Source: Lytechinus pictus (taxonomy: Eukaryota). From it: a stretch of 64,000 nucleotides of DNA. Where the stretch lies: positions 18,230,001 through 18,294,000 of the forward strand of contig NC_087250.1 in assembly GCF_037042905.1 (NCBI RefSeq), in the 5' to 3' direction. Shown here piece by piece: positions 2,880 through 56,440 of the stretch. Both the position numbers and the translations under genes were made by a program. The stretch's first letter is position 1; each line of letters begins with the position of its first letter. The notes beneath the pieces were generated by a model. The model was given only the letters and a program-made list of their open reading frames with translations. It did no database searches and had not been told where the DNA came from.

Positions 2880-4481
2880 AAACAATGTAACGAAGTAATG
2901 AACAAAAAAGGCCTACAAATGATGATATGAGTATTGAACACAATGGTCAATTTTTTACAGAAAAACAAGATATTGTTAATATTTTTAAATGATTATTTTG
3001 TAAGTATTGGGAAAAAGATTCAAGACAGCATAGACGGTGGACGTTCAGATCCTAAACTAGACAAAAGTCACTGGTTAAAGGGAAATTACTTTCGTCTATT
3101 TTCTTTTGTCCAGTTAAAACTTGTGATGTTATTAAAATTATTAAAGGACATATTTTTATGACTTTCGGAGTATTGCAAATGACTTAATCAGTAATTATTT
3201 ATCAAACGGGAAACAGTTTGTTAGCATTGGAAATTTTACTTCTTCTGGCAATGCAATTTCCACAGGCTTGGGGAAAGGTTCAAACTTGGCCCTCTTCTCT
3301 TTCGGTTATATGTGAATGATTTACCGAATTCTAGCGATATATTATCTTTTATTTTATTCGCAGACGACACAAGCCTTTTTGTTTCTGATGATAATCTAGT
3401 AAGAGCATCCAATTGCATTAATATTGAGTTACAAAAAGTTCATTCTTGGTTTGTACTAAATTTTGATAAAACAAATTTAATAATTTTCAAAACAAAAAAT
3501 GAATGCCTGGATTTAGGTCAAATTAAAATATATATTGATGATAATGAAATACAAATGACAGGATCTGTAAAATTTCTTGGTGTGAAATTGGACAATAAAT
3601 TAATTTGGAAAGATCATGTAGATGAAATTTCTCGTAAGATATCCTGTGTTATAGGAATATTGAGTAGAATTAAACATATTTTACCAATGTCAGTTTTCCT
3701 GAAATTATATAATGCTATGATCTTGCCACAGTTGAGTTATTGTAACATCATATGGGGAAATTGTCCAAAATACTTATTACAGAGGTTACACTTGTTGCAG
3801 AAACGTGCTATTAGAATAATTACAAAGTCATCATACCTTGCCCATACAAACATAATTTTTTTAAATCTCAATATTTTAACAATATTTGACCTGAATGTTT
3901 ACTGCGTTGCCGTATTTATTTATCAGTATTTTAAAAGTGTTTTGCCTGAATGTTTTAGTGATTCATTTATTTTTCTAAGTGCTGTCAGGAAATATGCATT
4001 AACAAGACACTATAATGATCTATACTCGCCAAAGAACCGAACTGATTTTTCTCTTTCCATTATTAATTACAGAGGACTTATGATTTTGAATAATTTGAAA
4101 TCAGAACAGAAATCTTACCAGTCAATATCTCTTTTTAAAAGACAATACAAATCATCTCTTATTAATTCATAGTTCATTCAATAGACTTTCAGTTGCCTGT
4201 TTTTGCCTTTTTTTTTCTTTTTGTATTGGTGTATATTTTATTTATTTGTATGTTGTGTTCGGGGACTAGCCTTGATAGGCCTCTGGCCTTTGCTGGTCCC
4301 CTGCTTCCGGTACATGTATGTTGTGCTTTCAATTGTTGTAATTGTTATCTCTAAAATTGTATTTTGCTTTTTTTATCTCTTGCCTCTTTAGAATATTTTT
4401 TAATATTGTTTTATTATGTTAAATGTATGATTTTATCTTGGATGCAAATAAAAGGCCATATCGGCCAATCAATCAATCAAT
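2880..4481 (+). pseudogene. 5'-truncated, internally deleted CR1/L2-group LINE (Crack/Daphne-like): RT C-terminal half, 3' UTR and (CAAT)n tail
   Basis: ORF 3312-4172 has VNDLP...ILFADDT, VKFLGVKLDNKLIWKDHV and LSYCNIIWG...LQKRAIRII. GSNLGPLL lies just upstream in another frame. AATAAA is at ~4447 and caatcaatcaatcaat at 4466-4481. Confidence 0.9.
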
Positions 4482-10377: not shown

Positions 10378-13220
10378 GTGTATACCATTTACCATAAGAA
10401 AGGATCACCAGTCATTCTTTAAGTCGCTCCTAACTTACGAACAGCTTTAGGAAGCACCCACCAGGTTACCCTTGAGGGTGGCCACTGATATATGGGTTTT
10501 CTAATTCTCAGGAAGAGAGTTCCACTTGCAACTCGAAAACCTTACTTATTTTACGGATCAGCGTATCTTCGCGATCCGTTTAAAAAACTTTAGTATTACT
10601 TAAATATTTGACATACATATTTGTAGCTATCGCCATTATATATAAATGTATTTAATACAATAAGAGATAGTTTGTATAAATATACCTAAATGTTAAAAGA
10701 TTTATTCCTCAAAGTGATGCGATCTAAAATTATTACTCATACATATTACATTAAAAAATCAAAACATTTTTAATTCGTCAAAATGAACATACACAAACTT
10801 TTAACAATTTTCAACTCTGAATTTTAAATGAAATGGAGAGCATTTTTGTTTTAATCGAATTTTTTTAGAGTTGTAATCGATAGATCATATTATATAATAG
10901 GTAGAATCTAAATTTTTTGGTGGGGTTGTTAATTCTACATAAAAACAATAAATTAACAAATATTCAAATTTCTGTTGTAGAATTTTGTAAAAAACTAACA
11001 TTAAAGTTACAATAAAAAATCCCAAAAATAGATAAATCAACAGATGATTAGCTGTCAACTGCTAACCATGCCATACGCTCCCTTTCTTTTCTGATATTGA
11101 TTTCTGTAACGCTTTCTGTATTACGTCACATTAATCGTCCCCAGCACCTTAACAGTTGTGCTACTCGTCTTTTATATTCCGCCGTGACACACCTCCTGAA
11201 CCCTGTTCTATAAATTGCACTGGCTCTCTATTAGACATTGGATTATTTTGAAATTGCTTCGTTTTGTATACAAATCACTATATAAACTGTCCCCCAAAAT
11301 ACATGTCTGATTGTTTAGAAATTTACATCCCAGGTAGAAGAAATAGATCCTCTGAAGACCCACTTAAATCAACACATCCAACTAAAACAAAACAGACCAG
11401 AAATAGAACATTATCTAATATGTCATTCTGTTCTATCTTTTTTTTTTATAAATAAGTTAAACTGAAATTGCGCGCCGTTTTCTGCCATGTGGGGAAAAGC
11501 TCGATATAAATATCTTATTATTATTGTTATTTTTATTATTGTTATCATTATTTTTTATTATTATTTTCATTATTATTTGTATTATTATTTTTTTTCTTTT
11601 TTTTAGCATTCCATTGGCGAATCATTTATAGTGGACGTTCCACCAAGCGTGATATCTTGTCCTTCATATCTTATATACGACTTTTTTCAAAAAATACTTT
11701 TGTGGATCTAGCCCTATTTGCCAACAAACTGAAATGGATCTAACCTATTTTGAAAATAACGATATTTTTTCTTTGCCTTTTTTGTTTTGTTTACTTTTTA
11801 ATGGGAATATCAACTTTGTTTTGATATTATCTTATCGGGGCTTCCAAGTATTTTTATAGTGTTAAATAAATCATATGTAACAATATATTGATCTAGGTTT
11901 TTTTTCTAAAACGGACCAGCATAATTCCTCAATCCGTGAAAAAAATTAATTGAATAAAATTTGACGTGTCTAATTCGTACATTTAAATTTTAAAAGGGTG
12001 TATATATAATATAATATAATTAAAAAAAAGTTTATTAAAATCTACCCACATTCCAAAATATCATACATTTGAATTCAGAGGATTTAAAAATATTACTCAT
12101 GTTTAATACATTTTTGGAATAATTCAATTCATTTATATGAACATAAACATTTTTTTCGATTTTTTTTTTACACTGAATTTAAAATGAAATATAATACCGA
12201 TTTTTCTTTTAATCGTAGTTCGGAATTATATTTTAGACTTGTAATCGATAGATCAAATTCAATAAGAGGAAGAACATTAATATTCTGCATCAAAATCATC
12301 AATTAACAAATGTTAAAATATCTGTTGTAGGTCAATGTTAAGACTGACATAAAATTTACAATAAAGAATCTTAAGAATAAATGAATTAATAGATGATTAT
12401 TCATTGCATTCTGTTGGCGAAACATTTACAGTGGACGTTCATCCAAGCGTCATGAAGCTTTGCTTTAATAAAGGTAGAAAAATACTGGCGAAGGTCTGGT
12501 GAAACTCCATAAAAAAGATGGTTAAGCTTTGTTTTAAGTTTTTTATTAAAGAAGTCATGTGCGAGCAGCATTCCCGAATATTAGTGAATTCTATTTGTTT
12601 TGATATTATTTATGACGAATACAAATATTGTTCTTATAGAAAGTTGCGGTATGAACTGTTGTGTCTGATGACGAATTCGTGTTTTTCCAGAGGGGGGCAC
12701 ATTTTTTCTAGGAAAATAAATTTACAAATATAATTGAATATCAATTGAAGTTCCATGGTAAGACTGACATGAAAGTGCAATAAAAAAATATACAAAGTAT
12801 ATAGACTAATAAATTATCTATTCCATCCTCTTGGCGACTTAATTATTGTGGACGTTCGAATAGGTGTCGTGAAGTTCGCTTTAATAAGAGGGGGAAAATA
12901 GAAAAATATTGGTGAAGGTTTTGTGAAGAAATCTTTCCAAGAAAGAGAGTTGAAATGAATTTATAAAGCTTTTAATTTGTGACGTCATGCACCATCCCCA
13001 TATAATATGAGCAAACTGTATTAATATGCTTAAAATTCATCGTTATATATCAGCAATTTTCACATTTTTCAACCTGGTGTCGAAACGAACGAAGAACTTC
13101 AATTTGCTTTGTGGTAATATTCAAGTACTACTGGGTAGATATGCAAAAAATTGATAACCAAGAAAATTACATTTGTTTTAACATTGACAAAAATAATATT
13201 TCAGTGCTAAAGCAGTCGGC
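10378..13220 (+). repeat. Host tandem repeat copy 1, 5' part (continues at 50468-51947)
   Basis: Collinear with 51948-54855 and, up to 12717, with 60343-62600. The same spurious ORFs recur (12518 vs 54107). Confidence 0.92.
11130..11400 (+). pseudogene. L2-like LINE ORF2 C-terminal relic within the host repeat (paralogs at ~52730-52980 and ~61040-61260)
   Basis: With one frameshift it reads YKLHWLSIRHWIILKLLRFVYKSL...PKYMSDCLEIYIPGRRNRSS. This matches the LHWLP..RI.FK...YK.L...P.YL......Y.P.R.LRSS tail typical of L2/CR1-group LINEs. Confidence 0.7.
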
Positions 13221-13805
13221 TATGAGGCGCCGAATGTACCAATATTATATAGAACAATTATTTGTTATATAATCATTATTTATTAAATAATAACTATTAT
13301 TTATATATAATTTACATTTTATTTGTAAATAACTACTATTATATAAAACATAATTTCTAATTATTTATATATAATTCCAAGTAATACTTCATTACTTGTA
13401 AATAATAATAGTTCGACATTCCATTATTTATAAATAATGACTATTTGTTTTTCAATATTTATAAATAATGATTATTTGTTTTTCATTATTTACAAATAAT
13501 GATTATTTGTTTTTCATTATTTATAAATAATGATCATTTGTTTTTCATTATTTATAAATAATGATTATTTGTTTTTCATTATTTATAAATAGTGATTATT
13601 TGTTTTTCATTATTTATAAATAATGATTATTTGTTTTTCATTATTTATAAATAATGATTATTTGTTTTTATATTATTTATAAATAATGACACTACATACT
13701 TCATTATTTATAAATAATGACACTACATACTTCATTATTTATAAATAATTGCAATTCGTTTTTCCGTTATTTATAAATAAGTTTTCTATTATTTATAAAT
13801 AATAA
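13221..13805 (+). repeat. Left TIR, outer segment, with a 31-bp AT-rich minisatellite (~8 copies)
   Basis: Reverse complement of ~49783-50461. The unit ttatttataaataatgattatttgtttttca contains the palindrome ttatttataaataa. Confidence 0.95.
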
Positions 13806-14164
13806 GATTATTCGAATAAGCGAAGAAGATAGTTTGCGAGAGAAGACAGGTCTTCTCAAAAAACCAATTATTGGCAAGCCATACACGGCCCGCGAAAACA
13901 AAGCGCGCCCCTGCGATTCCGCGGGAATTCTCCAAGGACACGCCCCCAGCAACATGTCTGTGATTGGCTGGGCATGTCATGGATGGCGCCGTTACACAGC
14001 GCCCTTGGTGACAGCCAGGCAACGGCAACGGGGGCACAGCCTCTACGCTAAAAAGAACCAATGAAATGCATTGAAAGAATTCAGGGACGTGCGCAATACG
14101 CGACAGATTTGGAAGCACATGTTCATTCTCAACTAAGCTCTGGGGGATGCAAGACGTTAATTTG
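13806..14164 (+). repeat. Repeat A1 (GC-rich, several CCAAT/ATTGG motifs; candidate promoter)
   Basis: Direct repeat of 18233-18591. It contains ccaatt, gattgg and ccaatg. Confidence 0.95.
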
Positions 14165-17100
14165 TAGTTCGCTATGAAACCGTTCTTGGATCATCATAGT
14201 TTAGGCCTCACTTTAGCAGGCTAATACAAACAATTCAAGTACTAGTATTGCTCATCCCAGGTCACAGGGATGTCAGGATAAAATGGATCCCGAGAAAATT
14301 AATTCTCAGCGTTTTTATCAACATTATGAATGGCTAGCCGTCCAGATCTCGCTGACGACACGCTGGTGGAGCTGCAGAGTGCAGTGAAGGGATGGACGGA
14401 TACAACGCTGAATTACCGAACCCCTACAGGGACTATCTCAGTTAGGCCGGGATCACCGTTCTCGTTAGAGGTCTAACGTTAGATCGACCGCTATTTTGCC
14501 ACGGTCTATCGGTGAGACTGCAGAGTTGGAATATACATCAGCTTCCACAGGAATAATAAGTACTTTCAGTCAAACGGAAGCTCTGACCAATGCCGTGAAT
14601 GAGGATATTTGCCGGAGTTGTTCTCCTATGAGTACAACTAGGCCGATTGTCTTTTGAGGCTGTGCCTGTGATAAAACTGCCGGCGATGCTTCGAGTTCGA
14701 TGGAGCTGGATCTAGGTGATTGTTGATGCGAATGGAGTGGAGTTAGGGCCCGGACCACAGTGTATATATCTTGACCCGGTGAGTGTTTGGATCCATGTTT
14801 GTACTTGTAGTTGCACATCTTGACCTAGACCTTAAATGAATTTGGCCTGAACCGGCCGCTATAGTATAGCTATTACTTAACTTGGGGCCCGGAACTCTAA
14901 CGTTATAACTTGTGATACTAGATCCAGGCCTATATCTATTGACCAAATTCAAAGTTCCAACTCAGACTAAATGTCCTCTGGGCCTGGATCTATCCCTATA
15001 ACCCCTTTGGCTTTGGTTCTAGGGCCAACTATGATATACGATATCGATCTAATAGGACCGAACATTTTTCAATATATTTCTAATGTGGTTGCGGGAATGC
15101 AGGATAAATGGAAACTGAAGGACCTAGGCTAGCTTCGACTCGGCTTGGTTTGCGACTGGAGTTGAGTTGCTCCATGAGTTAAGTTGATTCAATATGACTT
15201 TATGAGAGCGTTGGTAAGGGTCGAATCAGAGGGCTTGGCGTCGCGCCCCACTCGGAAAGGCAGCGTTGAACAGTGGACTGAGTTGAATTATCAAATATTA
15301 GGTCAAAACCTATCACAATATGAGTTTTTTGTATTGGATCTAATTAAAGGATCAACATTCTGTTTCGCCAGCTGAGTCCCGGCTCATGCTACAAAATAAA
15401 CAAAAAAGAAATAATCGATGCTCCATACACCAAGCTGGATCCCACGATAATTTGAGCCCATTGATCAGCTGGCATTTTGTAACCAAATTCCCCAAAATGA
15501 ACAGGATAGGGGCTATAAATGAAACTGGGGTGGCTGCCTTCGGTGTGAACAGGGATACGATAAATATGATGAAATAAACTGCATTCGCCTACCGGTACTA
15601 AAACGATATTATTTATTGAGATAGATGGTAGAGGTATAGGTCGATGTACCGTAATCCGTATTTTGCTGTCCATTGGGCGTGTGTAATAATAGTTATTTGC
15701 TTGGTCAACTTCATCCTGTTCTGGACCTACATGAATTAACTGGCAGCTTAGTTGCTTGATGAGGTTGGGGAATGCTAAGATACGTCATTTTTTATAGACC
15801 TCTATTACCAAATTTCAGTTCGGAAATGTAGTCAATGTATGCCCAGCGTCCGTACCACTTATCCCTTCTCGCCGGCCTCGAGTTTATAAGATGGCGTAAA
15901 GATAAAACATAACCACAATAAAATATACGTTGATTGTATCATTCCGGGTGAGGAGGGGAAGTTGAGGGCGTTTGTGCCCCCCCCCCCCGAAATGCTCAAA
16001 AGAGCCCTGGAAAACCCCATTTATTGCCATGTTAAAGCTTATCCAACGCTGTAGGTTCGGCCCCTAGTTGTGAAAAGTGAAGGGAACGAGTGCGGGATTC
16101 ACAAATTCATTGGCATACTTTTTAAAAGGGCGCCTTGGAAAATCCCCTTTTATTGCAATTCTGGAGCGTTGCAAGTTAAGGCGATTAGTTGTGGAAAGTA
16201 TAAGGGAACAGGTATGGAATTCCTTGCACACATTCTTGTCACGTTGTGTTGAACAATACTCTGCCGGAAGATTTGTTTGTTTTTTACCTCTCCAGGGACG
16301 TGGAGTCTGAAGTTAATTGGCCAGGGCACAAATGATCAAGCCTAGACCCAGACTGATGTACGAGGAGACTTAGCTAAGCTTGACCTGGACTGGTGTCCGA
16401 AGGGACAGGGCTTAGACTTGGCTTACTATGGTTCACATTGGATGACAGTGGTTGCAAAGGTTTTCACACTGCAAGATGAGAAATCCGGATTTATTTGAAG
16501 ATGCCGGATTTATGGTTTAACGTAATGCTCTAAATAGACGAGAGGTTGAGAAATGCAGTGATCAAGATCCTTAAGTCCAGACTTGAAGAGGAAACATGAA
16601 TAATCTCGAAGTTGTTGAGAAGTATAACCCTTTCGGAGAAAACTAAAAAACCTTGGAAAAAAGGGGCATTATGGGAACACCTTCAGTTCGTATCTATTTG
16701 TAATTCTGGGCAGCCAGCAAAGTCGGTTGAAGCATCGATAACCAAGAATATAAACAAAAACTGTGAGGCATGTCCCTCTGGTGCATTTATGTGCTTATAT
16801 ATGTCTCTTCCTTTAAGACATAACCTCACCTGTTGTAAGAGGCGATCTCATATATGAAGCCAACTTGAATGTGGGAATGCACGCCTTGATTTTTATGCCC
16901 CCATTTAACTTCATTAATCGATGTGGAATGGATATTATTTGTTTCGATTCACACTGGTGACCAAAAACGGAAAAAAAAAAAGAAAAAAAAAAAAGAGAGA
17001 AAAAAAAAAAAAAAAACTTGCGAACAACATTCACTCGCAGGGGGAATGAAATAAGCAAGGATGCGATGTTGTCAAGCTTGTTAATGGTTTAGAGTGAGAA

Positions 17101-17761
17101 TGGTTGGCCAATGTCCAATTGATGTAGAAATATTTATAACAACTTGGAGGTGTAGACGAAGAGTATGGTATATGATGCGTCCATTCGTTGATCGCATGAG
17201 ATTGCTTTGTATGGAATAATTTTTTGATTGTTGACTATCCATTCCGATGGCTGGCATGGTTTATTGATCATTAACTTAGTTGTTGTCCTTGATTATTGAA
17301 TTGGCTGGGTTGTCGAGCGTGAAAACTCACTTTTGAACTTATGGCTTGGTTGGGCTTGGTTACAGAATTACCGACTGATTATTATCGGTAGCTTTGACAT
17401 CAGCTTTCCAGGGGAGGCAATGGTTTGATAATTTAAAGTCGACGGCACCGATGCACGGCCCTCTATTCTACCATTTAGGGTCGCCGCCGAGGAGGCAGAA
17501 TATGGGACAAAAGAAGATGACGCTCATATTATATATTTTGGTCCTAGTGCAGAGGACAAGGGAGAGAGAGCATAATTTATGGGTTTCCGAAACCATGAGT
17601 TGCAACCAGGAAACCAGACGCGATGGTTTGGGAGGGATGGCCTTGACATGAAGGGACTCCCAAAATCCAATAGTGTTTGCCAAGTGTCACGGCCAAAAAA
17701 AAAAAAAAAAAAAAAAAATGATTATTTGGGGCTTTCGCTTTTTTGTGGGTATTTTTTTTAT

Positions 17762-18591
17762 ATCGGTCAAATTTCAACACCAGGGGGAGGCACTGTATAC
17801 TAATTATGTCAAGAAAATCGGGACAGGGGAACCCAACTTTCCAAAGTCTCCTGGTTTGGAAGTCCGGCTGGATGTCTTCCGGCAGGTTCCCCTTCCAAGA
17901 ATTCACGTTCTGGTCTTGAAGCCTCTCCCCCAATTTTATTTCACACATGAGATAATCTTGTATTGAATAGATGATAAATGTAAAGAGGGGAATCCGCACC
18001 CCAGGAAATACCTGTCCTGGGATCCCGTTGGATCTCTTCCTTCTGGGAGGTCACGTGACCCGGTTTCCCCCTTAAAATCTGGTTGATTGTGGCTTGATGA
18101 ATATTGTTTAGAAACTGTGTACTTGTTAAAATATTGTAAATGTCGTTTTAATGATTCTGGTAAAATCCCCCAGAGGCAATAAAGTTGAGAAACGGCAATT
18201 TCATGTTCGATCTGTATTTATTCTCGCAATAAGATTATTCGAATAAGCGAAGAAGATAGCTTGCGAGAGAAGACAGGTCTTCTCAAAAAACCAATTATTG
18301 GCAAGCCATACACGGCCCGCGAAAACAAAGCGCGCCCCTGCGATTCCGCGGGAATTCTCCAAGGACACGCCCCCAGCAACATGTCTGTGATTGGCTGGGC
18401 ATGTCATGGATGGCGCCGTTACACAGCGCCCTTGGTGACAGCCAGGCAACGGCAACGGGGGCACAGCCTCTACGCTAAAAAGAACCAATGAAATGCATTG
18501 AAAGAATTCAGGGACGTGCGCAATACGCGACAGATTTGGAAGCACATGTTCATTCTCAACTAAGCTCTGGGGGATGCAAGACGTTAATTTG
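17762..18591 (+). repeat. Abutting B1-A2 junction
   Basis: ...tttattctcgc AATAA gattattcgaataagcg... joins the element's right end to its left end. An AATAAA signal lies ~45 bp before the end of B. Confidence 0.95.
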
Positions 18592-18859
18592 CCCTCCCTC
18601 CCGCCCATTTAATAATGGTTGTGAGTGGTTGGTTATAATATTGTCAGGGTCGGAGGGTATTGTTTCTGCCTCCAAAAATGTGGTACACATGTTATGAAAA
18701 AAGATGGATGATATAATACATGGTTGTTAATAATTCTGTCGTGATTTTTGTTTATACTCAAATCTGTCAAAGGCGATTGTGCTAATTAATCTAAATGTGG
18801 TAATAGCGAATTTTAAAGACGGGGCTCGAGATTGCTCAATGAGCCTGTTTAAGTGCAAA

Positions 18860-20225
18860 TTGTGCCGGTTACAGTTGATTGAAATAACCTTATATTTTGG
18901 TTGGTTATACTGTTGATAGATAACATGGATTTATTTTGGTTGGTTGGCTGGGCATGTGTTTGGATAGAATTGCATTGGTTGCATAGGCTTGTATTAGTTG
19001 ACTGGATGGGCTTGATTGGCTTGTTGGTCGGATAGACTTGCATTGGTTGGTTGGGCGATATGTTTGGTTGTTTATTATCATAAGGATCCACGCTCTACAA
19101 GCAAGGCTTTTAGTGGATCCCCTCATTTCCAAACAAGTTCTTGTTAATACAATTGCCCAAATTTTCATAATTTGTCTATAGTTGATTTGTAATTACAATT
19201 GTTGTGTATTTGTGTTTATGCATTTAGTGCATATTTGATTTGTACCGTGATTTTTTTATGATGTACATGACGGAAGTTCAAAATGAACTCGTTTTTATTC
19301 GGTTGGATGTGCTTGCGCTGGTTGGGTGGATGGGCTTGCTATGATTGGTTGGTTGGTTATAATGATCATAGATTCACGCTCTCCAAGTAGTTATTTTAGT
19401 GGATCCCCTCATTTCCAACCAAGCTATTAATACTTTTGTACAAATTTTAAAATTTTGTCTGTAGTGGACCGGCAATTACAATTTATATGTATTTGCAAAT
19501 TGTTTATGCGCACTATGATGCATATTTAATTCGTGTTTGTATTTGGTAATGATGTACAAGATGAACTGAAATTTGTTTGGTGGCTTTATATGGTTGGTTG
19601 GCTGGGCTTGTTCTGGTTGACTACAATTGCACAAATTTTCATAATTTGCAGTTGATTTGGAATTATAATTGATGTGTATTTGTGTTAATGCATTTGATGC
19701 ATATTGATTGGTACCGTAATTTTTTTTGTGATGTACATGACGGAAGTTCAAAAGGAACTTGTTTTGTTTGGTTGGATGGGCTAACATTGGTTGGATCATG
19801 GACCTACTGGTTGGATGTTTGGGCTTGTTATGATTAGTTGATTGGTTATGATCATATCGATCCACGCTCTATCAGCAGATCCTTTAAAAAGATCCCCTCA
19901 GTTTCAACCAAGCTGATAATACTATTGTACAAATATTGAAATTGTGTCCGTAGTTGACTTGTAATTACAATTGATATGTATTGTCATTGTTTATGCATCA
20001 TATCATTTATAATTGATTTATGTTTGTATGTGGTAATGATGTACAAGGTGAACTTAAACTCGTTTGGCTAGTTAGGTTGGCTTTACATGGTTGGATGGTT
20101 GGATGGGCTTGTTATGGTTGGTTGGTCGGGCTTGTTATGGTTGGTTGGTCGGGCTTGATATGGTTGGTTGGATGGGCTTGTTTTGGCTGGTAGGATGGGC
20201 TTGTTTTGGTGTTTGGCCTGATTAC
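18860..20225 (+). repeat. TTGG-rich, strand-skewed degenerate tandem repeats in the A2-B2 spacer
   Basis: gatccacgctct...gatcccctca...aag recurs at ~19086, ~19371 and ~19858. ~23-bp tggttggtyggrtgggcttgtta-like units occur at 20088-20205. Confidence 0.8.
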
Positions 20226-20242
20226 TGAGTATTTTTTCTTAG

Positions 20243-20708
20243 ATCGGTCAAATTTCAACACCAGGGGGAGGCACTGTATACTAATTATGTCAAGAAAATC
20301 GGGACAGGGGAACCCAACTTTCCAAAGTCTCCTGGTTTGGAAGTCCGGCTGGATGTCTTCCGGCAGGTTCCCCTTCCAAGAATTCACGTTCTGGTCTTGA
20401 AGCCTCTCCCCCAATTTTATTTCACACATGAGATAATCTTGTATTGAATAGATGATAAATGTAAAGAGGGGAATCCGCACCCCAGGAAATACCTGTCCTG
20501 GGATCCCGTTGGATCTCTTCCTTCTGGGAGGTCACGTGACCCGGTTTCCCCCTTAAAATCTGGTTGATTGTGGCTTGATGAATATTGTTTAGAAACTGTG
20601 TACTTGTTAAAATATTGTAAATGTCGTTTTAATGATTCTGGTAAAATCCCCCAGAGGCAATAAAGTTGAGAAACGGCAATTTCATGTTCGATCTGTATTT
20701 ATTCTCGC
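20243..20708 (+). repeat. Repeat B2 (3' terminal)
   Basis: Direct repeat of 17762-18227. Confidence 0.95.
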
Positions 20709-20713
20709 AATAA

Positions 20714-21875
20714 TTATTTATTATCAATGCCAGTGCACATTTCTTTATTTATAAATAATTTGTTGAGTTTTCCATTATTTATAAATAAAGATTATTTGTT
20801 AAATTATGAAATATCTACTTCATTATTTATAAATAATAATTTAGTTTCAATATCCCATTATTTATAAATAATCATTATTTATAAACAATTTTTACAGTTT
20901 GCCATTATATACAAATAATCATTATTTATATACAAATAACCATTATTTATTAAATAATGCCATTATTTATTAAATAATGCCATTATTTATTAAATAATGG
21001 AAAACTCGCTATAACATGCAAATGTGGGACCGCCCATGATATGAATATTCATGATGCGATTTCCTTTTTCGTGATTTTTCTTCACAAATTTTTGTCCATT
21101 TCCTCTTCATAATGACATTTCTTGAAGCAATTTTCTAGGGATATGGTCTGATTGTAATATTCTTCATTTTCTATATAACTTCGTCTTCGTAGAAATATCA
21201 AAAAGTGTAATTTTATACGGTTTTTCCTACAGTTCACAATCCCCATAGGCGCGCGTGTATCGTGGGGACAACCGGTGAATCGACGGAGTGCTCTTCATCG
21301 AAATACTACGTTGGTTGGTCCCCGGAAGTGGCTGGCGGAATTTAGCCCGAATCCTCGATGGAAGTCGATCAAGTGCATATGAGCTGAGAGAGTGAAATAT
21401 CAGTGTACTTGTACAGGCCCTTCTACTTTTTATAAATATTTCTTGTTGCTTTTTTTGTTAAGTTAATTTTTCCTGGTGTAGAGATAAGTTTCAGTTCTAA
21501 TAATGCACTTCAAATACATTTTGGAGTGTCTGTTTGGGGCGATTTCACCCTGGCCCCAAAATGCTCGCAACGACAATACGGGGGCATGATGACCCCTAAT
21601 TTTTTTCTATTGAAAATTATCACAAAATTCACCAAAAGTGTGCACGAAAGCCTTCGTATTTCACTTTTAAAACTCCAAAAAGTGCCAAAATGACAAGCTT
21701 GGTCGCTTCGGTGTGTCGCTTTCAACTTGAGAAAGTTTACGCGTCTGCTTCCCCCCCCCCCTCCTCCGAAAGAAATTCTGTATACGGCCATGCTCTAAAG
21801 AGCCTGGCACATTGATTTATGTATACTTCATTTTCATTATTTTTATCTCATTATCATCATGGCCTTACGCAGAAT
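20714..21875 (+). repeat. Left TIR, inner segment (resumes after the SDR insertion)
   Basis: Reverse complement of ~48479-49782 with few substitutions and some indels. Confidence 0.95.
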
Positions 21876-48044: not shown

Positions 48045-48720
48045 GGGGGAGCAGGACGCGCGTAAACTTTCTCATAAAAATCTTGAAAAAGCGGAGCGAC
48101 CAAGCTTGTCATTTGAGCTTGGTCGCGTCGCTGTCTCGCTTTCAAGATTTTTTTGAGAAACTTTACGCGCGTCCTAGCTGCTCCCCCCCCCCCCCCTGGT
48201 AAAAATTCTGTGTAAGGCCATGATGATAATGTGATAAAAATAATGAAAATGAAAAGTACATATAAATCAATGTGCCATATGCTCTTTTGAGCATGGCCGT
48301 TCACGGAATTTCTTTCGCAAGGTGGGGGCAGACACGCGTAAACGTTCTCAAGTTGAAAGCGAGACAGCGAAGCGACCAAGCTTGTCATTTGGGCTTGGTC
48401 CCGTGGCTGTCTCGCTTTCAAGATTTTTTTGAGAAAGTTTACGCGCGCCATGCTCCGGCCCCGGCCCCCCTGGAAAAAATTCTGCGTAAGGCCATGTTGA
48501 TAATGAGATAAAAATAATGAAAATGAAAGTATACATAAATCAATGTGCCAGGCTCTTTAGAGCATGGCCGTATGCAGAATTTCTTTCGGAGGAGGGGGGG
48601 GGGAAGCAGACGCGTAAATGTTCTAAAGTTGAAAGCGACACAGCGAAGCGACACAGCGAAGCGACCAAGCTTGTCATTTGGGTACTTTTTGGAGTTTTAA
48701 AAGTGAAATACGAAGGCTTT
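48045..48720. repeat. Three ~275-290 bp units built around hairpins with core gcgaccaagcttgtcatttg
   Basis: The core is at ~48097, ~48372 and ~48661. ggacgcgcgtaaactttctca...tgagaaactttacgcgcgtcc forms a stem at 48054-48174. Confidence 0.8.
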
Positions 48721-50461
48721 CGTGCACACTTTTGGTGAATTTTGTGATAATTTTCAATAGAAAAATAAGTTTTTAAAAATTTAGGGGTCATCATGCCCCC
48801 GTATTGTCGTTGCGAGCATTTTGGGGCCAGGGTGAAATCGCCCCAAACGCCTCAAACAGACACTCCAAAATATATTTGAAGTGCATTATTAGAACTGAAA
48901 CTTATCTCTACACCAGGAAAAATTAACTTAACAAAAAAAGCAACAAGAAATATTTATAAAAAGTAGAAGGCCTGTACAAGTACACTGATATTTCACTCTC
49001 TCAGCTCATATGCACTTGATCGACTTCCATCGAGGATTCGGGCTAAATTCCGCCAGCCACTTCCGGGGACCAACCAACGTAGTATTTCGATGAAGAGCAC
49101 TCCGTCGATTCACCGGTTGTCCCTACGATACACGCGCGCCTATGGGGATTGTGAACTGAAGGAGAAATCGTATAAAATTACACTTTTTGATATTTCTACG
49201 AAGACGAATGTATATAGAAAATGAAGAATATTACAATCAGACCATATCCCTAGAAAATTGCTTCAAGAAATGTCATTATGAAGAGGAAATGGACAAAAAT
49301 TTGTGAAGAAAAATCACGAAAAAGGAAATCGCATCATGATTATTCATATCATGGGTGGTCCCACATTTGCATGTTATAGCGAGTTTTCCATTATTTAATA
49401 AATAATGGCATTATTTAATAAATAATGGTTATTTGTATATAAATAATGATTATTTGTATATAATGGCAAACTGTAAAAATTGTTTATAAATAATGATTAT
49501 TTATAAATAATGGGATATAGAAACTAAATTATTATTTATAAATAATGAAGTAGATATTTCATTATTTAACAAATAATCTTTATTTATAAATAATGGAAAA
49601 CTCGAACATTAAATAATGATTATTTATAAATAATGAGAATAATGGTGCACTCGAAAAAATTATTTATAAATAATGAAGTAGACGTTTTCATTATTTAACA
49701 AATAATCATTATTTATAAATAATGGAAAACTCAACAAATTATTTATAAGTAAAGAAATGTGCACTGGCATTGATAATAAATAATTATTATTTATAAATAA
49801 TAGAAAACTTATTTATAAATAACGGAAAAACGAATTGCAATTATTTATAAATAATGAAGTATGTAGTGTCATTATTTATAAATAATATAAAAACAAATAA
49901 TCATTATTTATAAATAATGAAAAACAAATAATCATTATTTATAAATAATGAAAAACAAATAATCATTATTTATAAATAATGAAAAACAAATAATCATTAT
50001 TTATAAATAATGAAAAACAAATAATCATTATCTATAAATAATGAAAAACAAATAATCATTATTTGTAAATAATGAAAAACAAATAATCATTATTTATAAA
50101 TAATGAAAAACAAATAATCATTATTTATAAATAATAAAAAACAAATAATCATTATTTGTAAATAATGAAAAACAAATAATCATTATTAATAAATAATGAA
50201 AAACAAATAATCATTATTTATAAATAATGAAAAACAAATAATCATTATTTATAAATAATGGAAGGTCGAACTATTATTATTTACAAATAATGAAGTATTA
50301 CTTGGAATTATATATAAATAATTAGAAATTATATTTTATATACTAGTAGTTATTTACAAATAAAATGTAATTTATATATAAATAATAGTTATTATTGAAT
50401 AAATAATGATTATATAACAAATAATTGTTCTATATAATATTGGTACATTCGGCGCCTCATA
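48479..50461 (-). repeat. Right TIR (1,983 bp, uninterrupted), with ~12 copies of the 31-bp minisatellite
   Basis: Reverse complement of 13221-13805 joined to 20714-21875. Confidence 0.95.
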
Positions 50462-50467
50462 CTCGGC

Positions 50468-51947
50468 TATGAAACTAGAAATGAGAGCAACCTTGATATT
50501 TCTACAGGCCTCGTTCATAACTGGCCCGCGACAAAATTATTACTAAAAATTAGTATCTTAAAACTGATTATTTGGCACTATAACATGTATATATAATTTA
50601 TTTAATATATTAAAAAAATAGTTAAAATAAATTAACCTATACCTTAAAAGATTATTCCTTTAAAGTCATAAAATCTGATATATTACTCATACATATAAAT
50701 TTATTTACAAAAGTTACGTTTTTTAATCTTCATGTTTGTCAATGTGAGTCTCCATCGACATTTTAAACTTTTCAAAACTGAATTTGAGACGAACTTTTGA
50801 AACACGTTTTGAAGTTAATCGCAGTTCTGTGTTTTGTAGACCCGTAATCGATTAATAAGATTTTAGAAGCAAGCATTTTTCCCCCCATTTTATTCCACAT
50901 CAGAATCATAAATTTACAAATATTATTGATCAATTGAAGTTCCATGGTAAGACTGATATGAAAGTACAATAAAAAATAATATTGAGAGTAAATATACTAA
51001 TAAATATTATCTATTCCATCCTATTGGCGACTTAATTATTGTGGACGTTCGAACAGGTGTCGTGAAGTTCGCTTTAAAGATAAATTCCAGGTCTGGTAAC
51101 GATCTCAAAATGACTTTTTACATTATCTAATATAATGACCACCCAAGTGTCTGCTTGTATGAATAAAAAAATATGTGCCAAAGGATTCTGGAAGAAATTG
51201 TGTAATTGCTGAGAAATAAGCAAAATAAGCGCGGATTCGGTCACTTCCGTCGGGTCTTTATTCCAGCAATAATAATACACTGTCCCACGTGTGCCTATCT
51301 GTGTTGGTGATCTTCAGTGTGAACATTTTTCAGCGTAGATTTCAAGATTTCACAAAGTTCAGTTCATGTAACTGTACCAGATCTAGATCCTCGATGATAT
51401 ACTGACAATTACGCCTGGTTTTACAGACTTTCTCATGAAATCAGTGTTTACTGCAACTACTGGCATTTCTCTTTAATAAGAGGGGGAAAATAGAAAAAAT
51501 ATTGGTGAATTTTTTGTGAAGAAATCTTTCCAAGAAAGAGAGTTATAATGAATTTCTGAAGCTTTTGATTTGTGACGTCATGCACCATCCCCATATAATA
51601 TGAGTAATCTCCCCATACAAATTTGCAGTGCTAACTGTCTTAATACATTTAAAGTTATGTTTAAAGGTCAAGTCCACCTCAGTTAAGTGTAGATAAGAAT
51701 CAATGGAAAAACCAGACAAAGCAAAATGCTGAAATTTGTGGAGGACACTCCAACCCGGTTTTGAATCGATTACTTTATGATGGGAGAATATAAAAAGAAG
51801 AATAAAAGAGCTTTCAATTTGCCATGGGGTAAGAAGGGCCAAGGAAAGACGAAGTCGATTGCAAAGATTGCAACACTTCTCAATTCAGCATTAACACGAT
51901 TTGTCTAACGACTGGTGAACCTTTCATACGCGCTAAACCATCGCCAA
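50468..51947 (+). repeat. Host tandem repeat copy 1, 3' part
   Basis: Collinear with 54856-56440. Confidence 0.92.
51078..51472. mobile_element. Kolobok-like MITE with TTAA TSD
   Basis: ttaa|agataaattccag ... ctggcatttctct|ttaa. The empty site gaagttcgctttaataagaggggg is at ~12871 and ~54507. Confidence 0.85.
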
Positions 51948-54900
51948 TGGTGTATACCATTTACCAAAAGAAAGAATCACCAGTCATTCTTAAAGTCGCT
52001 CTTAACTTACGAACAGCTTTAGGAAACACCCACCAGGTTACCATTGAAGGTGGCCACTGATATATGGGTTTTCTAATTCTGAGGAAGAGAGTTCCGCTTG
52101 CAGGAAATAAAACCTTACTTCTTTAACGGATCAGCGTATCTTCGCGATCCGTTTAAAAAACTATAGTATTACTTAAATATTTGACATACTTAATTACAGC
52201 TATCGCCATTATATATATATATGTATTTAATACAATAAGAGATAGTTTGTATAAATATACCTAAATGTTAAAAGATTTATTCCTCAAAATCATGCAATCT
52301 AAAATTATTACTCATACATATTACATTTAAAAAATCGTAACCTTTTTAATTTGTCAAAATGAACATACACAAACTTTAAACAATTTTCAACTCTGAATTT
52401 TAAATGAAATGGAGAGCCATTTTGTTTTAATCGTATTTCAGTATTTATTTTTTAGAGTTGTAATCGATAGATCATATTATATAATAGGTAGAATCTATAT
52501 TTTTTGGTGGGGTTGTTAATTCTACATAAAAACAATAAATTAACAAATATTAAAATTTCTGTTGTAGAATTTTTGTAAAAAACTAACATTAAAGTTACAA
52601 TAAAAAATCCCAAAAATAGATAAATCAACAGCTGATTAGCTGTCAACTGCTAACCATGCCATACGCTCCCTTTCTTTTCTAATATTGATTTCTGTAACGC
52701 TTTCTATACTACCTCTCATTGATCGTCCCCAGCACCTACACAATTGGGCTTCTCGTCATTTATAATCCGCCGTGACACACTTCCTGAACCACTGTTCTAT
52801 AAATTGCACTGGCTCTCTATTAGACATTGGATTATTTTGAAATTGCTTCGTTTTGAATACAAATCACTACATAAACTATCCCCCAAATTACTTGTCTGAT
52901 TGTTTAGAAATTTACATCCCAGGTAGAAGAACTAGATCCTCTGAAGACCCACTTAAATCAACATATCCAACTGAAAGAAAACAGACCAGAAACATAACAT
53001 TATTTAATATGTCATTCTGTTCTATGGTTTTTTTTATAAATAAGTTAAACTGAAATTGCGCGCAATTTTCTGCCATGTGGGAAAAGCTCGATATAAATAT
53101 CTTATTATTATTGTTATTATTATTATTGTTATTATCATTATTTTTTATTATTATTTTCATTATTATTATTATTTGTATTATTATTTTTTTTCTATTTTTA
53201 GCATTCCATTGGCGAATCATTTATAGTGGATGTTCCACCAAGCGTGATATCTTGTCCTTCATATCTTATATACAACTTTTTTCAAAAAATACTTTTGTGG
53301 ATCTAGCCCTATTGGCCAACAAACTGAAATGAATCTAACCTCTTTTGAAAATAACGATATTTTTTCTTTGTCTTTTTTGTTTTGTTTACTTTTTAATGGG
53401 AATTTCAACTTTGTTTTGATATTATCTTATCGGGGCTTCCTTGTATTTTTATATTGTAAGTAAATCATATGTAACAGTATATTGATCTAGGTTTTTTTCT
53501 AAAACGGACCAGCATAATTCCTCAGTCCGCGACAAAGTTGGTTGAATAAATTTTGACGTATTTCGTTTTTAAGATATCTGAAAAGGATATATATATAATA
53601 TATTATAATAAAAAAACGTTTATTAAAATGTACCCACATTCCAAAATATCATACATTTAAATTCAGAGAATTTAAAAATATTAATCATGTTTAATACATT
53701 TTTAAAAAAAAATCAAATTATTTATATGAACATGAACAATTTTTTCGATTTTTTTTTTACACTGAATTTAAAATGAACTATAATACCGATTTTTCTTTTT
53801 ATCGTAGTTCGCTATTATATTTTAGACTTGTAATCGATAGATCAAATTCAATAAGAGGAAGAACATTAATATTCTGCATCAAAATCATCAATTAACAAAT
53901 GTTAAAATATCTGTTGTAGGTCAATGTTAAGACTGACATAAAATTTACAATAAAGAATCTTAAGAATAAATGAATTAATAGATGATTATTCATTGCATTC
54001 TGTTGGCGAAACATTTACAGTGGACGTTCATCCAAGCGTCATGAAGCTTTGCTTTAATAAAGGTAGAAAAATACTGGCGAAGGTCTGGTGAAACTCCATA
54101 AAAAAGATGGTTAAGCTTTGTTTTAAGTTTTTTATTAAAGAAGTCATGTGCGAGCAGCATTCCCGAATATTAGTGAATTCTATTTGTTTTGATATTATTT
54201 ATGACGAATACAAATATTGTTCTTATAGAAAGTTCCGTCATGAACTGTTGTGTCTGATGACGAATTCGTGTTTTTCCAGAGGGGGGCACATTTTTTCTAG
54301 GAAAATAAATTTACAAATATTATTGAATATCAATTGAAGTTCCATGGTAAGACTGACATGAAAGTGCAATAAAAAAATATACAAAGTATGTAGACTAATA
54401 AATTATCTATTTGGTTGGTTGGTGTTGGAGTTAAGTTGGCGCTCTTCAATCTGGTAGATTATCTGCTTGGCGACTTAATTATTGTGGACGTTTGAACAGG
54501 TGTCGTGAAGTTCGCTTTAATAAGAGGGGGAAAATAGAAAAATATTGGTGAAGGTTTTGTGAAGAAATCTTTCCAAGAAAGAGAGTTGTAATGAATTTCT
54601 AAAGCTTTTAATTTGTGACGTCATGCACCATCCCATATAATATGAGCAAACTGTATTAATATGCTTAAAATTCATCGTTATATATCAGCAATTTTCACAT
54701 TTTTCAACCTGGTGTCGAAACGAACGAAGAACTTCAATTTGCTTTGTGGTAATATTCAAGTACTACTGGGTAGAAATGCAAAAAATTGAATACCAAGAAA
54801 ATTACATTTGTTTTATCATAGACAAAATTAATATTTCATTGCAAAAGCAGTCGGCTAGGAAACTAGAAATAAGAGCAACCTTGCTATTTCTACAGGCCTG

Positions 54901-56440
54901 GTTCATAACTGGCCCGTTACAAAATTGTTACTAAAATTAGTATCTTAAAACTAATTTATTGGCACAATAACATGTATATATAACTTATTTAATATATTTA
55001 AAAAATAGTTAAAATAAATTAAGCTATTCCTTAAAAGATTATTCCTTTAAAGTCATAAAATCTGATATATTACTCATACATATAAATTTATTAACAAAAA
55101 TTACGTTTTTTAATCTTCATGTTTGTCAATGGTGAGTCTCCATCGACATTTTAAACCTTTCAACACTGAATTTGAGACGAACTCTTGAAACATGTTTTGA
55201 AGTTAATCGTAGTTCTGTGTTTTGTAGACCCGTAATCGATTAATAAGATTTTAGAAGCAAGCATTTCCCCCCCCCCCCCCATTTTATTCCACATCAGAAT
55301 CATACATTTACAAATATTATTAAATATCAATTGAAGTTCCATGGTAAGACTGATATGAAAGTACAATAAAAAATAATATTGAAAGTAAATATACTAATAG
55401 ATATTATCTATTCCATCCTCTTGGCGACTTAATTATTGTGGACGTTCGAACAGGTGTCGTGAAGTTCGCTTTAAAGATAAATTCCAGTTCTGGTAACGAT
55501 CTCAAAATGACTTTTTACAGAATCTAATATAATGACCACCCAAGTGTCTGTTTGTATGAATAAAAAATATGTGCCAAAGGATTCTGAAAGAAATTGTGTA
55601 ATTGCTGAGAAATAAGCAAAATAAACGCGGATTCAGTCACTTCCGTCGGGTCTTTATTCCAGCAATAATAATTCACTGTCCCATGTGTGCCTATCTGTGT
55701 TGGTGATCTTCAGTGTGAACATTTTTCAGCGTAGATTTCAAGATTTCACAAAGTTCAGTTTATGTAACTGTACCAGATCTAGATCCTCGATGATATACTG
55801 ACAATTACGCCTGGTTTTACAGACTTTCTCATGAAATCAGTGTTTACTGCAACTACTGGCATTTCTCTTTAATAAGAGGGGGAAAAATAGAAAAAATATT
55901 GGTGAATTTTTTGTGAAGAAATCTTTCCAAGAAAGAGAGTTATAATGAATTTCTGAAGCTTTTGATTTGTGACGTCATGCACCATTCCCATATAATATGA
56001 GTAATCTCCCCATACAAATTTGCAGTGCCAACTGTCTTAATACATTTAAAGTTATGTTTAGAGGTCAAGTCCACCTCAGTTAAGTGTAGATAAGAATCAA
56101 TGGTAAAACCAGACAAGCAAAATGCTGAAATTTGTGGAGGACACTCCAACCCGGTTTTGAATCGATTACTTTATGATGGGAGAATATAAAAATAAGAATA
56201 AAAGAGCTTTCAATTTGCCATGGGGTAAGAAGGGCCAAGGAAAGACGAAGTCGATTGCAGAAATTGCAACACTTCTCAATTCAGCATTAACACGATTTGC
56301 CTAAGGCAGTCTACTTTTCTCAAATCTGGACCTGACTACCAGGAATGTTTTCAGAGGGCCGTTTCATAAAGCTGTTCGTAAGGTAAGAGCGACCTTAAGA
56401 ACGACTGGTGAACCTTTCTTACGCGCTAAACCATCGCCAA
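51948..56440 (+). repeat. Host tandem repeat copy 2 (~4.49 kb, lacks the giant insertion)
   Basis: tggtgtataccatttaccaaaagaaag at 51948 recurs at 56441. Confidence 0.92.
55475..55868. mobile_element. Kolobok-like MITE, duplicated together with the host repeat
   Basis: Same position and ends as 51078-51472. Confidence 0.85.

What the first reader, a model, noticed from the sequence alone, without database searches (positions are those of the whole stretch)
13801..20713. Young, apparently non-coding A1...B1-A2...B2 element: non-autonomous Ngaro/PAT-like retrotransposon
Seen: a 359-bp A repeat and a 466-bp B repeat in the order A1-3.6 kb-B1A2-1.65 kb-B2. They are almost identical (one A mismatch, none seen in B). 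There are CCAAT motifs in A and an AATAAA near the end of B. I recognised no gag, RT/RNase H or recombinase motif and no long ORF. Known: split direct repeats in this order define Ngaro and PAT tyrosine-recombinase retrotransposons. Inference: this is a recently inserted 6.9-kb parasite mobilised in trans. Near-identical repeats around an interior with no protein homology suggest a purpose-built non-autonomous family rather than a decayed autonomous copy. The long A2-B2 spacer is atypical.
Basis: partly seen in the sequence, partly recalled or inferred. Interest (0 to 1): 0.85.

Follow-up and report, generated by a model that had tools for sequence, protein, structure and literature searches.

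The report
Gene-less split-repeat retrotransposon, folded junction
A 6.9-kb insertion with no recognisable genes carries two interleaved, almost identical end repeats and the same three letters at both ends and at its inner joint, so it is likely a passenger retrotransposon moved by borrowed enzymes (a design already known from algae), and its inner joint is predicted to fold into an RNA domain that could guide copying.

Summary
The layout is real: A1 (361 bp) - 3.6 kb - B1A2 - 1.65 kb - B2 (466 bp), one mismatch between repeat copies. New: the element sits in one arm of a foldback element whose other arm holds the empty site; AAT(AA) stands at both ends, at the inner B/A joint and once in the empty site. 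Contigs of other samples show the inner joint, A-y and y-B links, other flanks leaving after AAT, and a diverged relative under another species label. It is a multi-copy family, not a local rearrangement. No gene was found, but one read-through scan missed its positive control. No partner, circle or transcript was seen; 2 raw RNA runs gave no read wholly on it. Best reading: non-autonomous split-direct-repeat tyrosine-recombinase retrotransposon, like TOC1 and Ngaro-N1_Ec32; Ngaro versus PAT is undecidable. The long A2-B2 spacer is not atypical. The end of A is predicted to pair with B's poly(A) region, enclosing the junction cassette (moderate statistics, no covariation test). The scan already noted such gene-less families, and such pairing, elsewhere in this genome.

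The parts
13801..13803 (+). Left AAT core (match to the target extends to AATAA, 13801-13805)
   Evidence: same letters at left end, inner joint, right end and once in the empty site
13804..14164 (+). A1 repeat; CCAAT/ATTGG words at 13864, 13870, 13963, 14058; likely promoter (inferred)
14126..14148 (+). A-end pairing arm (9 + 11 bases complementary to B around AATAAA); near the inferred RNA start
   Evidence: RNA start not mapped
14165..17761 (+). Interior x, no gene found; holds A-rich tracts (16971-17016 and about 17695-17718) and a piece of a dispersed host repeat
15977..16222 (.). Piece of a dispersed genomic repeat (reads and contigs match 15977-16046 only, then run on unlike); diverged internal duplication 15998-16100 / 16124-16222
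17762..18227 (+). B1 repeat with AATAAA at 18178-18183
18165..18191 (+). B1 pairing arm (11 + 9 bases) with the AATAAA in or at the edge of the 7-base internal loop; predicted to pair with 18553-18575
   Evidence: pair probabilities 0.65-1.0 in the model
18228..18230 (+). Inner AAT core: built-in copy of the end-to-start (circle) junction
   Evidence: contigs with other flanks leave right after it
18209..18280 (+). Predicted junction hairpin (B tail with A +31 to +50) around the core
   Evidence: RNA plus strand z -2.37, 6 of 200 shuffles; minus strand z -1.0; not seen in shorter windows
18231..18591 (+). A2 repeat; pairing arm at 18553-18575
18592..20242 (+). Spacer y: G+T-rich on the plus strand, diverged 270-520 bp modules (67-77% alike), 23-bp tandem at 20092-20210
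20243..20708 (+). B2 repeat with AATAAA at 20659-20664; likely RNA end (inferred)
20709..20711 (+). Right AAT core (AATAA 20709-20713)
49784..49788 (-). Empty target site in the other arm of the host foldback element, with one AATAA

Best explanation
This is a young copy of a multi-copy family of 6.9-kb elements with split direct repeats and no recognisable gene, inserted precisely at an AAT, and likely a non-autonomous DIRS-order retrotransposon copied and integrated by another element's reverse transcriptase and tyrosine recombinase. Shown: layout, near-identity of the repeats, the empty site, the same core at both ends and at the inner joint, other flanks after the same core in other samples, and a relative under another species label. 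Inferred from the published model for such elements: an RNA starts late in A1 and ends near the AATAAA of B2; the missing front of A and tail of B are copied from the inner B1-AAT-A2 block; the product closes at a B-AAT-A junction; the recombinase crosses this AAT with a chromosomal AAT, leaving one AAT at each end and no true target duplication. Predicted here: the last 40 bases of A pair with the poly(A) region of B, and in the inner block this helix closes a loop of about 360 bases holding just the part that the RNA ends would lack; it may bring the two template-switch points together.
For: Empty site and four-way core; chance that the inner joint carries AAT is about 0.023, AATAA about 0.002. 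Repeats 1 mismatch in 835 bases, host arms 1.8-3.1% apart; all five runs with contigs over 18260 read T, so the one mismatch is private to A2. Family links: X1 one 2367-base contig B-A-y and cover in 30 of 30 bins; X3 joint y-end to B start; X2 contig across the inner joint at depth 33, like x end (36) and A-y (34); X9 contig y-B-A and an A end joined to x near 17029; X10 x-end-to-B and A-to-y contigs about 90-96% alike. Other flanks: 3 contigs in X3 and 1 in X2 leave right after B+AAT; 9 contigs in X10 leave or enter at 18229-18231. Fold: 18140-18600 z -3.75 plus strand, -2.76 minus (window chosen afterwards); on a fixed grid the two windows over the joint have the lowest z of 29 (-2.69, -2.19). 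Precedent: trinucleotide circular junction recombining with the same genomic trinucleotide (PMC3266345, PMC7192593, passages; described for DIRS1-like elements); repeats expected near-identical at insertion (PMC6681497).
Against: No autonomous partner, circle or cDNA seen. Raw RNA runs X19 and X20 (8.7 and 8.3 million records, about 6 in 100 of each run; tissue unknown) gave 54 and 34 laid reads, all only partly on the element, nearly all on the dispersed repeat near 16000. No contig spans a whole copy, and the full-length A1-to-x link was not seen outside the window. Depth of A is not twice that of the interiors in X2 (33-49 against 34-42) or X3 (43-51 against 31-73), though B is, and both are in X9 (11 against 5-7); the tool warns that contig depth is no copy number. 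The A-end/B-end match alone is modest: 73 of 2000 shuffles reach its alignment score and 1 of 10 other pieces of the element ties it; 2 of 30 shuffles reach its duplex energy; A1 and B2 alone also score z -2.06 and -2.14. No covariation could be tested. The core is less clean in X10.
Confidence: 0.8

Rival explanations
1. Two small gene-less tyrosine-recombinase DNA elements (Crypton-like), A-x-B and A-y-B, share ends and sit in tandem because the second inserted at the AAT left by the first; no reverse transcription is involved.
For: The sequence reads equally well as AAT-[A x B]-AAT-[A y B]-AAT. x and y share no similarity. Cryptons have short direct repeats matching the target (PMC13465315, passage). 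No transcript was seen.
Against: The inner joint is about as deep as x and y in X2 and lies in a deep contig in X1 and in the X9 contig, so tandems would have to be the rule. Both halves have near-identical ends despite unrelated interiors. A holds CCAAT words and B a poly(A) signal in the order an RNA needs.
Confidence: 0.08
2. It is the decayed or gutted remains of a once autonomous element of the nematode-Pat1/kangaroo layout (gag and RT in x, recombinase in y), still copied in trans; the interior is eroded coding DNA rather than filler.
For: Sizes fit: 3.6 kb before and 1.65 kb after the inner repeats, where those elements place MT and YR (PMC4157794). The start of x is 46% GC with short ATG frames. 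PAT-N1_Ec32 keeps a pol fragment. The read-through Pfam scan missed its positive control.
Against: No RT, RNase H, MT or YR hit in 82 frames of 40 or more residues, where the control RT was found; 0 hits among 1.84 billion proteins for one plus frame of x; none in 2 further searches. Stops are equally dense in all plus frames (64, 69, 68). y is made of G+T-rich repeat modules; x holds A tracts and a host repeat piece.
Confidence: 0.08
3. It is an LTR-type element or local rearrangement with a 5-bp target duplication (AATAA), the inner repeats arising from recombination between copies.
For: AATAA flanks both ends and occurs once in the empty site; AATAA is common in the target arm (35 in 1082 bases).
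Against: Ends are not TG...CA and the two ends are different sequences; a target duplication cannot explain the same letters at the inner joint; other insertions share only AAT; the links recur in several samples and under other species labels.
Confidence: 0.03

Closest known systems
Ngaro-N1_Ec32 (7,756 bp) and PAT-N1_Ec32 (9,475 bp), non-autonomous DIRS-order families of Ectocarpus (PMC12477816, supplement file 1 rows seen)
   Same: Large, non-autonomous, A-interior-BAB split repeats, listed TSD 0, internal tandem repeats.
   Different: There a likely partner is known (B about 90% like Ngaro-3) or a pol fragment remains; here neither was found. Here a 1.65-kb spacer separates A2 and B2 and the host is an animal (sea urchin by the scan's notes, not tested here).
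TOC1 of Chlamydomonas reinhardtii (passages in PMC5613634, bioRxiv 2022.06.16.496473 and bioRxiv 2022.08.29.505686)
   Same: Active non-autonomous DIRS-order element of about 6 kb that borrows enzymes. Its split-repeat layout and internal tandem array are recalled, not read here.
   Different: TOC1's partner TOC3 and its fresh insertions are documented; none is here. No sequence comparison was made.
Ngaro and PAT-like superfamilies, and VIPER/SIRE (passages in PMC4157794, PMC6681497, PMC8547959, bioRxiv 2021.08.05.455354)
   Same: A1...B1A2...B2 order and near-identical repeats. Nematode Pat1 and kangaroo also have a long stretch between the inner repeats and B2. SIRE equals the A2-B2 part of VIPER.
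   Different: No gag, RT/RNase H, YR or MT, the features that separate these groups.

Membership tests
Split-direct-repeat DIRS-order elements (Ngaro, PAT, VIPER) | Repeats in the order A1 ... B1A2 ... B2 | tested here: met
Split-direct-repeat DIRS-order elements (Ngaro, PAT, VIPER) | A1/A2 and B1/B2 near-identical in young copies | tested here: met
   1 mismatch in 835 bases
Split-direct-repeat DIRS-order elements (Ngaro, PAT, VIPER) | Short core shared by both ends, the inner junction and the target; no true target duplication | tested here: met
   AAT(AA) at four places; other flanks leave after AAT in X2 and X3, less cleanly in X10
Split-direct-repeat DIRS-order elements (Ngaro, PAT, VIPER) | RNA from A1 to B2 | tested here: inconclusive
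   no read wholly on the element in 2 of 2 raw RNA runs, about 6 in 100 of each read, tissue unknown
Split-direct-repeat DIRS-order elements (Ngaro, PAT, VIPER) | Free cDNA or circular intermediate | not testable with these tools
   the inner joint has the same sequence as the circle joint, so reads cannot tell them apart
Autonomous Ngaro | gag, RT/RNase H and YR genes, no MT | tested here: not met
   no intact frame; no hit
Autonomous PAT-like | gag, RT/RNase H/MT and YR genes | tested here: not met
   same calls
Non-autonomous DIRS-order element (TOC1, Ngaro-N1 type) | Dispersed multi-copy family without intact genes | tested here: met
   links and other flanks in X1, X2, X3, X9, X10; copy number not measured
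Non-autonomous DIRS-order element (TOC1, Ngaro-N1 type) | Autonomous partner with related ends | tested here: inconclusive
   no genome held; collection scans blank or chance; A and B far deeper than the interiors in X10 hints at other families with these ends
LTR retrotransposon | Same repeat at both ends, TG...CA termini, variable 4-6 bp target duplication (recalled) | tested here: not met
   ends are A and B, starting AAGATT and ending TCTCGC
Crypton (non-autonomous) | Independent units with short direct repeats and no inner copy of the junction | tested here: inconclusive
   short core fits; a family-wide inner joint does not; whole copies could not be phased

The most novel reading that the evidence does not exclude
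The inner B1-AAT-A2 block is a folded RNA device. An outer helix (end of A with the poly(A) region of B) clamps the two template-switch points side by side and loops out exactly the missing promoter half and tail, with a second hairpin around the AAT core. It sets how split-repeat retrotransposons rebuild their ends and may also let the RNA read through B1's poly(A) signal. A gene-less family that keeps little else would then display the minimal copying signals of a class whose priming and strand transfer are unproven. I found no description in the paper library (subscription papers are mostly missing); similar pairing was noted by this scan for other families.
Probability: 0.25. Interest if true: 0.65.

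Novelty: new member of a known kind. Interest (0 to 1): 0.38.

Why it matters
As an element it is a clean new example of a known design: a passenger tyrosine-recombinase retrotransposon with both junctions, the inner junction and the empty target readable in one window. Such gene-less families are invisible to protein-based annotation, and my search for 'non-autonomous DIRS' listed only the Chlamydomonas genome paper, so animal cases may be under-described. The part with more reach is the predicted pairing that frames the junction block: how split-repeat elements prime and switch template is a model, not a result, and this gives defined bases to test.

Tried and rejected
No genome is held for this window, so copies could not be listed or phased. 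Pfam on 82 of the 96 frames of 40 or more residues in the element (the 14 left out lie in A1 or B2 or run into the flank): only 4 weak unrelated hits, E 0.003-0.07; the control RT at 3225-4169 was found. Pfam on 12 whole frames read through stops as X: 0 hits, but the control RT was missed too, so this scan is uninformative. phmmer over 1.84 billion proteins with one plus frame of x (14283-16700): 0; word-indexed searches with 14330-14773 and 16100-16960: 0; the other frames were not searched this way. A cysteine-rich stretch near 14600-14700 looked to me like a gag zinc knuckle (recalled motif) but got no support. Rfam and tRNA scans: 0. Metagenome and viral scans: 0, 2 and 0 loci; both loci share only the 21-base word with B and are chance. 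Sequence look-ups in the scan's notes: 0. No RNA holder was listed. X1-X8 are unlabelled or guessed RNA; longest contigs of 15.8-16.6 kb in X1-X3 suggest low-depth DNA (inference), so they are not counted as expression. Junction hairpin: not significant in 66- and 86-base windows (z -0.9 to +1.2), which cut off its outer stem. Direct masking of B1's AATAAA as in the HIV-1 polyA hairpin (PMC2645353, search listing only): not supported, since 5 of 6 bases are unpaired in the model; only the bases after it are paired. X9's word share of 0.58 matching the size of its deletion: dropped as possibly coincidental. Lay tables are cut (40 and 58 loose-end rows not shown), so flank counts are lower bounds.
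Full report
Observation. The layout is as described. A copies lie at 13801-14164 and 18228-18591 with one mismatch, and B copies at 17762-18232 and 20243-20713 are exact over 471 bases. x is 3597 bp and y 1651 bp; they share no similarity with each other, and the element has none with the rest of the window. A is 50% GC with 4 CCAAT/ATTGG words; each B has AATAAA about 45 bp before its end. The longest stop-free frame of x is at chance level (44 of 300 shuffles), and stops are equally dense in the three plus frames.

Insertion site. The element interrupts one arm of a long inverted repeat (about 13221-21875 and 48479-50461) that brackets a 110-bp satellite of 230 copies. The other arm is uninterrupted and gives the empty site at 49788-49784: one AATAA, where the filled site has AATAA at each end. 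The same AATAA stands at the inner B1/A2 joint. A target duplication cannot put it there; the chance is about 0.023 for AAT and 0.002 for AATAA. The arms differ at 18 of 582 and 21 of 1142 aligned bases, the element's repeats at 1 of 835, so the insertion is young.

Family. No genome is held, so I used public runs. Nine of 21 listed runs hold 58-79% of the element's words, and seven more hold about a tenth. I laid 8 runs. X1 covers 30 of 30 bins of x-B-A-y, with one 2367-base contig through B, A and y; X3 joins the end of y to the start of B. X2 has a contig across the inner joint at depth 33, close to the end of x (36) and to A-y (34); X9 (another species label, but only 2 differences in 682 bases) has a y-B-A contig and an A end joined to x near 17029, an internally deleted form; X10 (a third label) keeps the x-to-B and A-to-y links at about 90-96% identity. 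Three contigs in X3 and one in X2 leave the reference right after B+AAT into other flanks, and nine in X10 leave or enter at 18229-18231. The core is therefore AAT, and the extra AA here is shared with the target by chance or preference. Limits: contigs collapse the repeats, so no whole copy is spanned, and the full-length A-to-x link was not seen outside the window. B is about twice as deep as the interiors in X2, X3 and X9, but A only in X9; the tool warns that such depth is no copy number. In X10 A (500-1000) and B (400-2400) are far deeper than the ends of x and y (90-300), a hint of other families with these ends.

Coding and expression. Pfam on 82 of 96 frames of 40 or more residues gave four weak unrelated hits while the control RT elsewhere in the window was found. 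A six-frame scan read through stops gave nothing but missed that control too. One plus frame of x against 1.84 billion proteins and two word-indexed searches were blank. Intact genes are absent; heavily eroded ones are not excluded. x holds A tracts and a piece of a dispersed host repeat, and y consists of G+T-rich diverged modules and a 23-bp tandem, which looks more like filler than lost genes. Raw RNA runs X19 and X20 gave 54 and 34 laid reads, all only partly on the element and nearly all on that dispersed repeat; tissue is unknown and about 6 in 100 of each run was read.

Predicted fold. The end of A (14126-14134, 14138-14148) is complementary, 9 + 11 bases in line, to B around its AATAAA (20646-20672). 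In the inner block this pairs 18165-18191 with 18553-18575 at probabilities 0.65-1.0 and closes about 360 bases: the tail of B, the AAT and the CCAAT half of A. If the RNA starts some 60-90 bases after the last CCAAT (recalled spacing) and ends shortly after AATAAA, this loop is what the RNA ends lack. Inside it, a hairpin surrounds the core (z -2.37, 6 of 200 shuffles on the plus strand; -1.0 on the minus strand). The block scores z -3.75 in a window chosen afterwards; on a fixed grid the two windows over the joint rank first and second of 29, just ahead of B2 and A1 alone. Against: the match alone is reached by 73 of 2000 shuffles and tied by 1 of 10 other pieces, and by 2 of 30 shuffles in duplex energy; shorter windows showed no hairpin; the AATAAA itself is mostly unpaired, so simple masking is not supported; covariation could not be tested. 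Two listed insertions in X10 fall in the 7-base loop and none of the listed substitutions falls in the helices, but only 40 of 234 rows were shown.

Mechanism. Most likely (0.8) a non-autonomous split-direct-repeat retrotransposon of the DIRS order. Shown: layout, identity, empty site, core, family. Inferred: RNA from late A1 to B2, rebuilding of both ends from the inner block by a borrowed reverse transcriptase, closure at B-AAT-A and crossover with a chromosomal AAT by a borrowed tyrosine recombinase. Rivals: tandem Crypton-like units (0.08), decayed autonomous copy (0.08, origin only), LTR element or local rearrangement (0.03).

Comparison with print. I read passages only, found by term search, not whole texts. 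PMC6681497: the A1-B1A2B2 order, near-identical repeats at insertion, SIRE as the A2-B2 part of VIPER. PMC4157794: Ngaro lacks MT; nematode Pat1 and kangaroo place the inner repeats between MT and YR, so a long A2-B2 stretch is known. PMC3266345 and PMC7192593: the trinucleotide junction model for DIRS1-like elements, ends most often ATT with an AAT junction; the second paper could not amplify the circular junction. PMC12477816 (passages and supplement file 1 rows): Ngaro-N1_Ec32 and PAT-N1_Ec32. PMC5613634 and two bioRxiv preprints: TOC1 as the non-autonomous partner of TOC3. PMC8547959, PMC13465315 and bioRxiv 2021.08.05.455354: definitions. PMC2645353: search listing only. Searches for a described stem or template switch in these elements listed none that fits; subscription papers, among them the original Ngaro and PAT descriptions, are mostly outside the library, and supplements of the bioRxiv preprints could not be seen. 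The element works like a Ngaro/PAT element but cannot be filed in either group without a partner.

Earlier notes of the scan. They report several gene-less split-repeat families in this genome (6.3, 7.5 and 8.7-8.9 kb), some with an AAT core, junction hairpins or start-to-end pairing, and coding Ngaro copies. They call the host a sea urchin, which I did not test. Look-ups by sequence found no look-alike, so this may be a further family. These notes led me to the Ectocarpus table, which I checked, and to look for pairing; they are not independent evidence.

Verdict. Real, young, multi-copy; a new member of a known kind. Interest 0.38; 0.65 if the folded junction block proves to be the copying scaffold (probability about 0.25).

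Noticed in passing
window 13216-50471: Host of the insertion: a foldback-type element of about 30 kb (without the insert) with arms of about 1.9 kb (31-bp and about 20-bp A+T-rich subrepeats, 2-3% apart), a 9-bp flanking duplication (13216-13224 and 50463-50471) and an empty paralogous site at 54851-54859. No transposase seen; a 9-bp duplication suggests the Mutator/foldback type (recalled).
   Followed up: partly
window 22414-47777: 110-bp satellite of 230 copies carried between the arms, with recurring variants at about 550-bp steps (copies five units apart are 98-100% alike); a transposon that may move a satellite array.
   Followed up: no
window 48090-48652 and 21684-21875: 276-bp unit, twice at the inner end of the right arm and once in part in the left, with internal inverted pieces.
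   Followed up: no
window 12001-13225, 50463-51600, 53590-55997, 61889-62600: The DNA around the foldback is itself a repeated segment, 84-95% alike among copies in the window.
   Followed up: partly
window 3225-4172: 3' part of a LINE-type reverse transcriptase frame, 315 residues, RVT_1 E 7e-5; used as control.
   Followed up: no
runs X9 and X10 laid on window 17560-18900: Deletion derivatives: X9 joins the A end (18582) to x near 17029 and keeps the A pairing arm; X10 joins A at 18307 to the B start and loses it. X2 has a diverged B end followed by AAT repeats.
   Followed up: partly
window 17506-17512 and 19788: X1's contig holds about 140 extra bases in x at 17506-17512, and X1 and X3 lack 20 bases at 19788: the window copy differs from the common type in its interiors.
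   Followed up: no
window 19084-19116: Small hairpin at the edge of a y module (z -2.92, 0 of 200 shuffles), weaker in the two sister modules (z -0.65, -1.63).
   Followed up: partly
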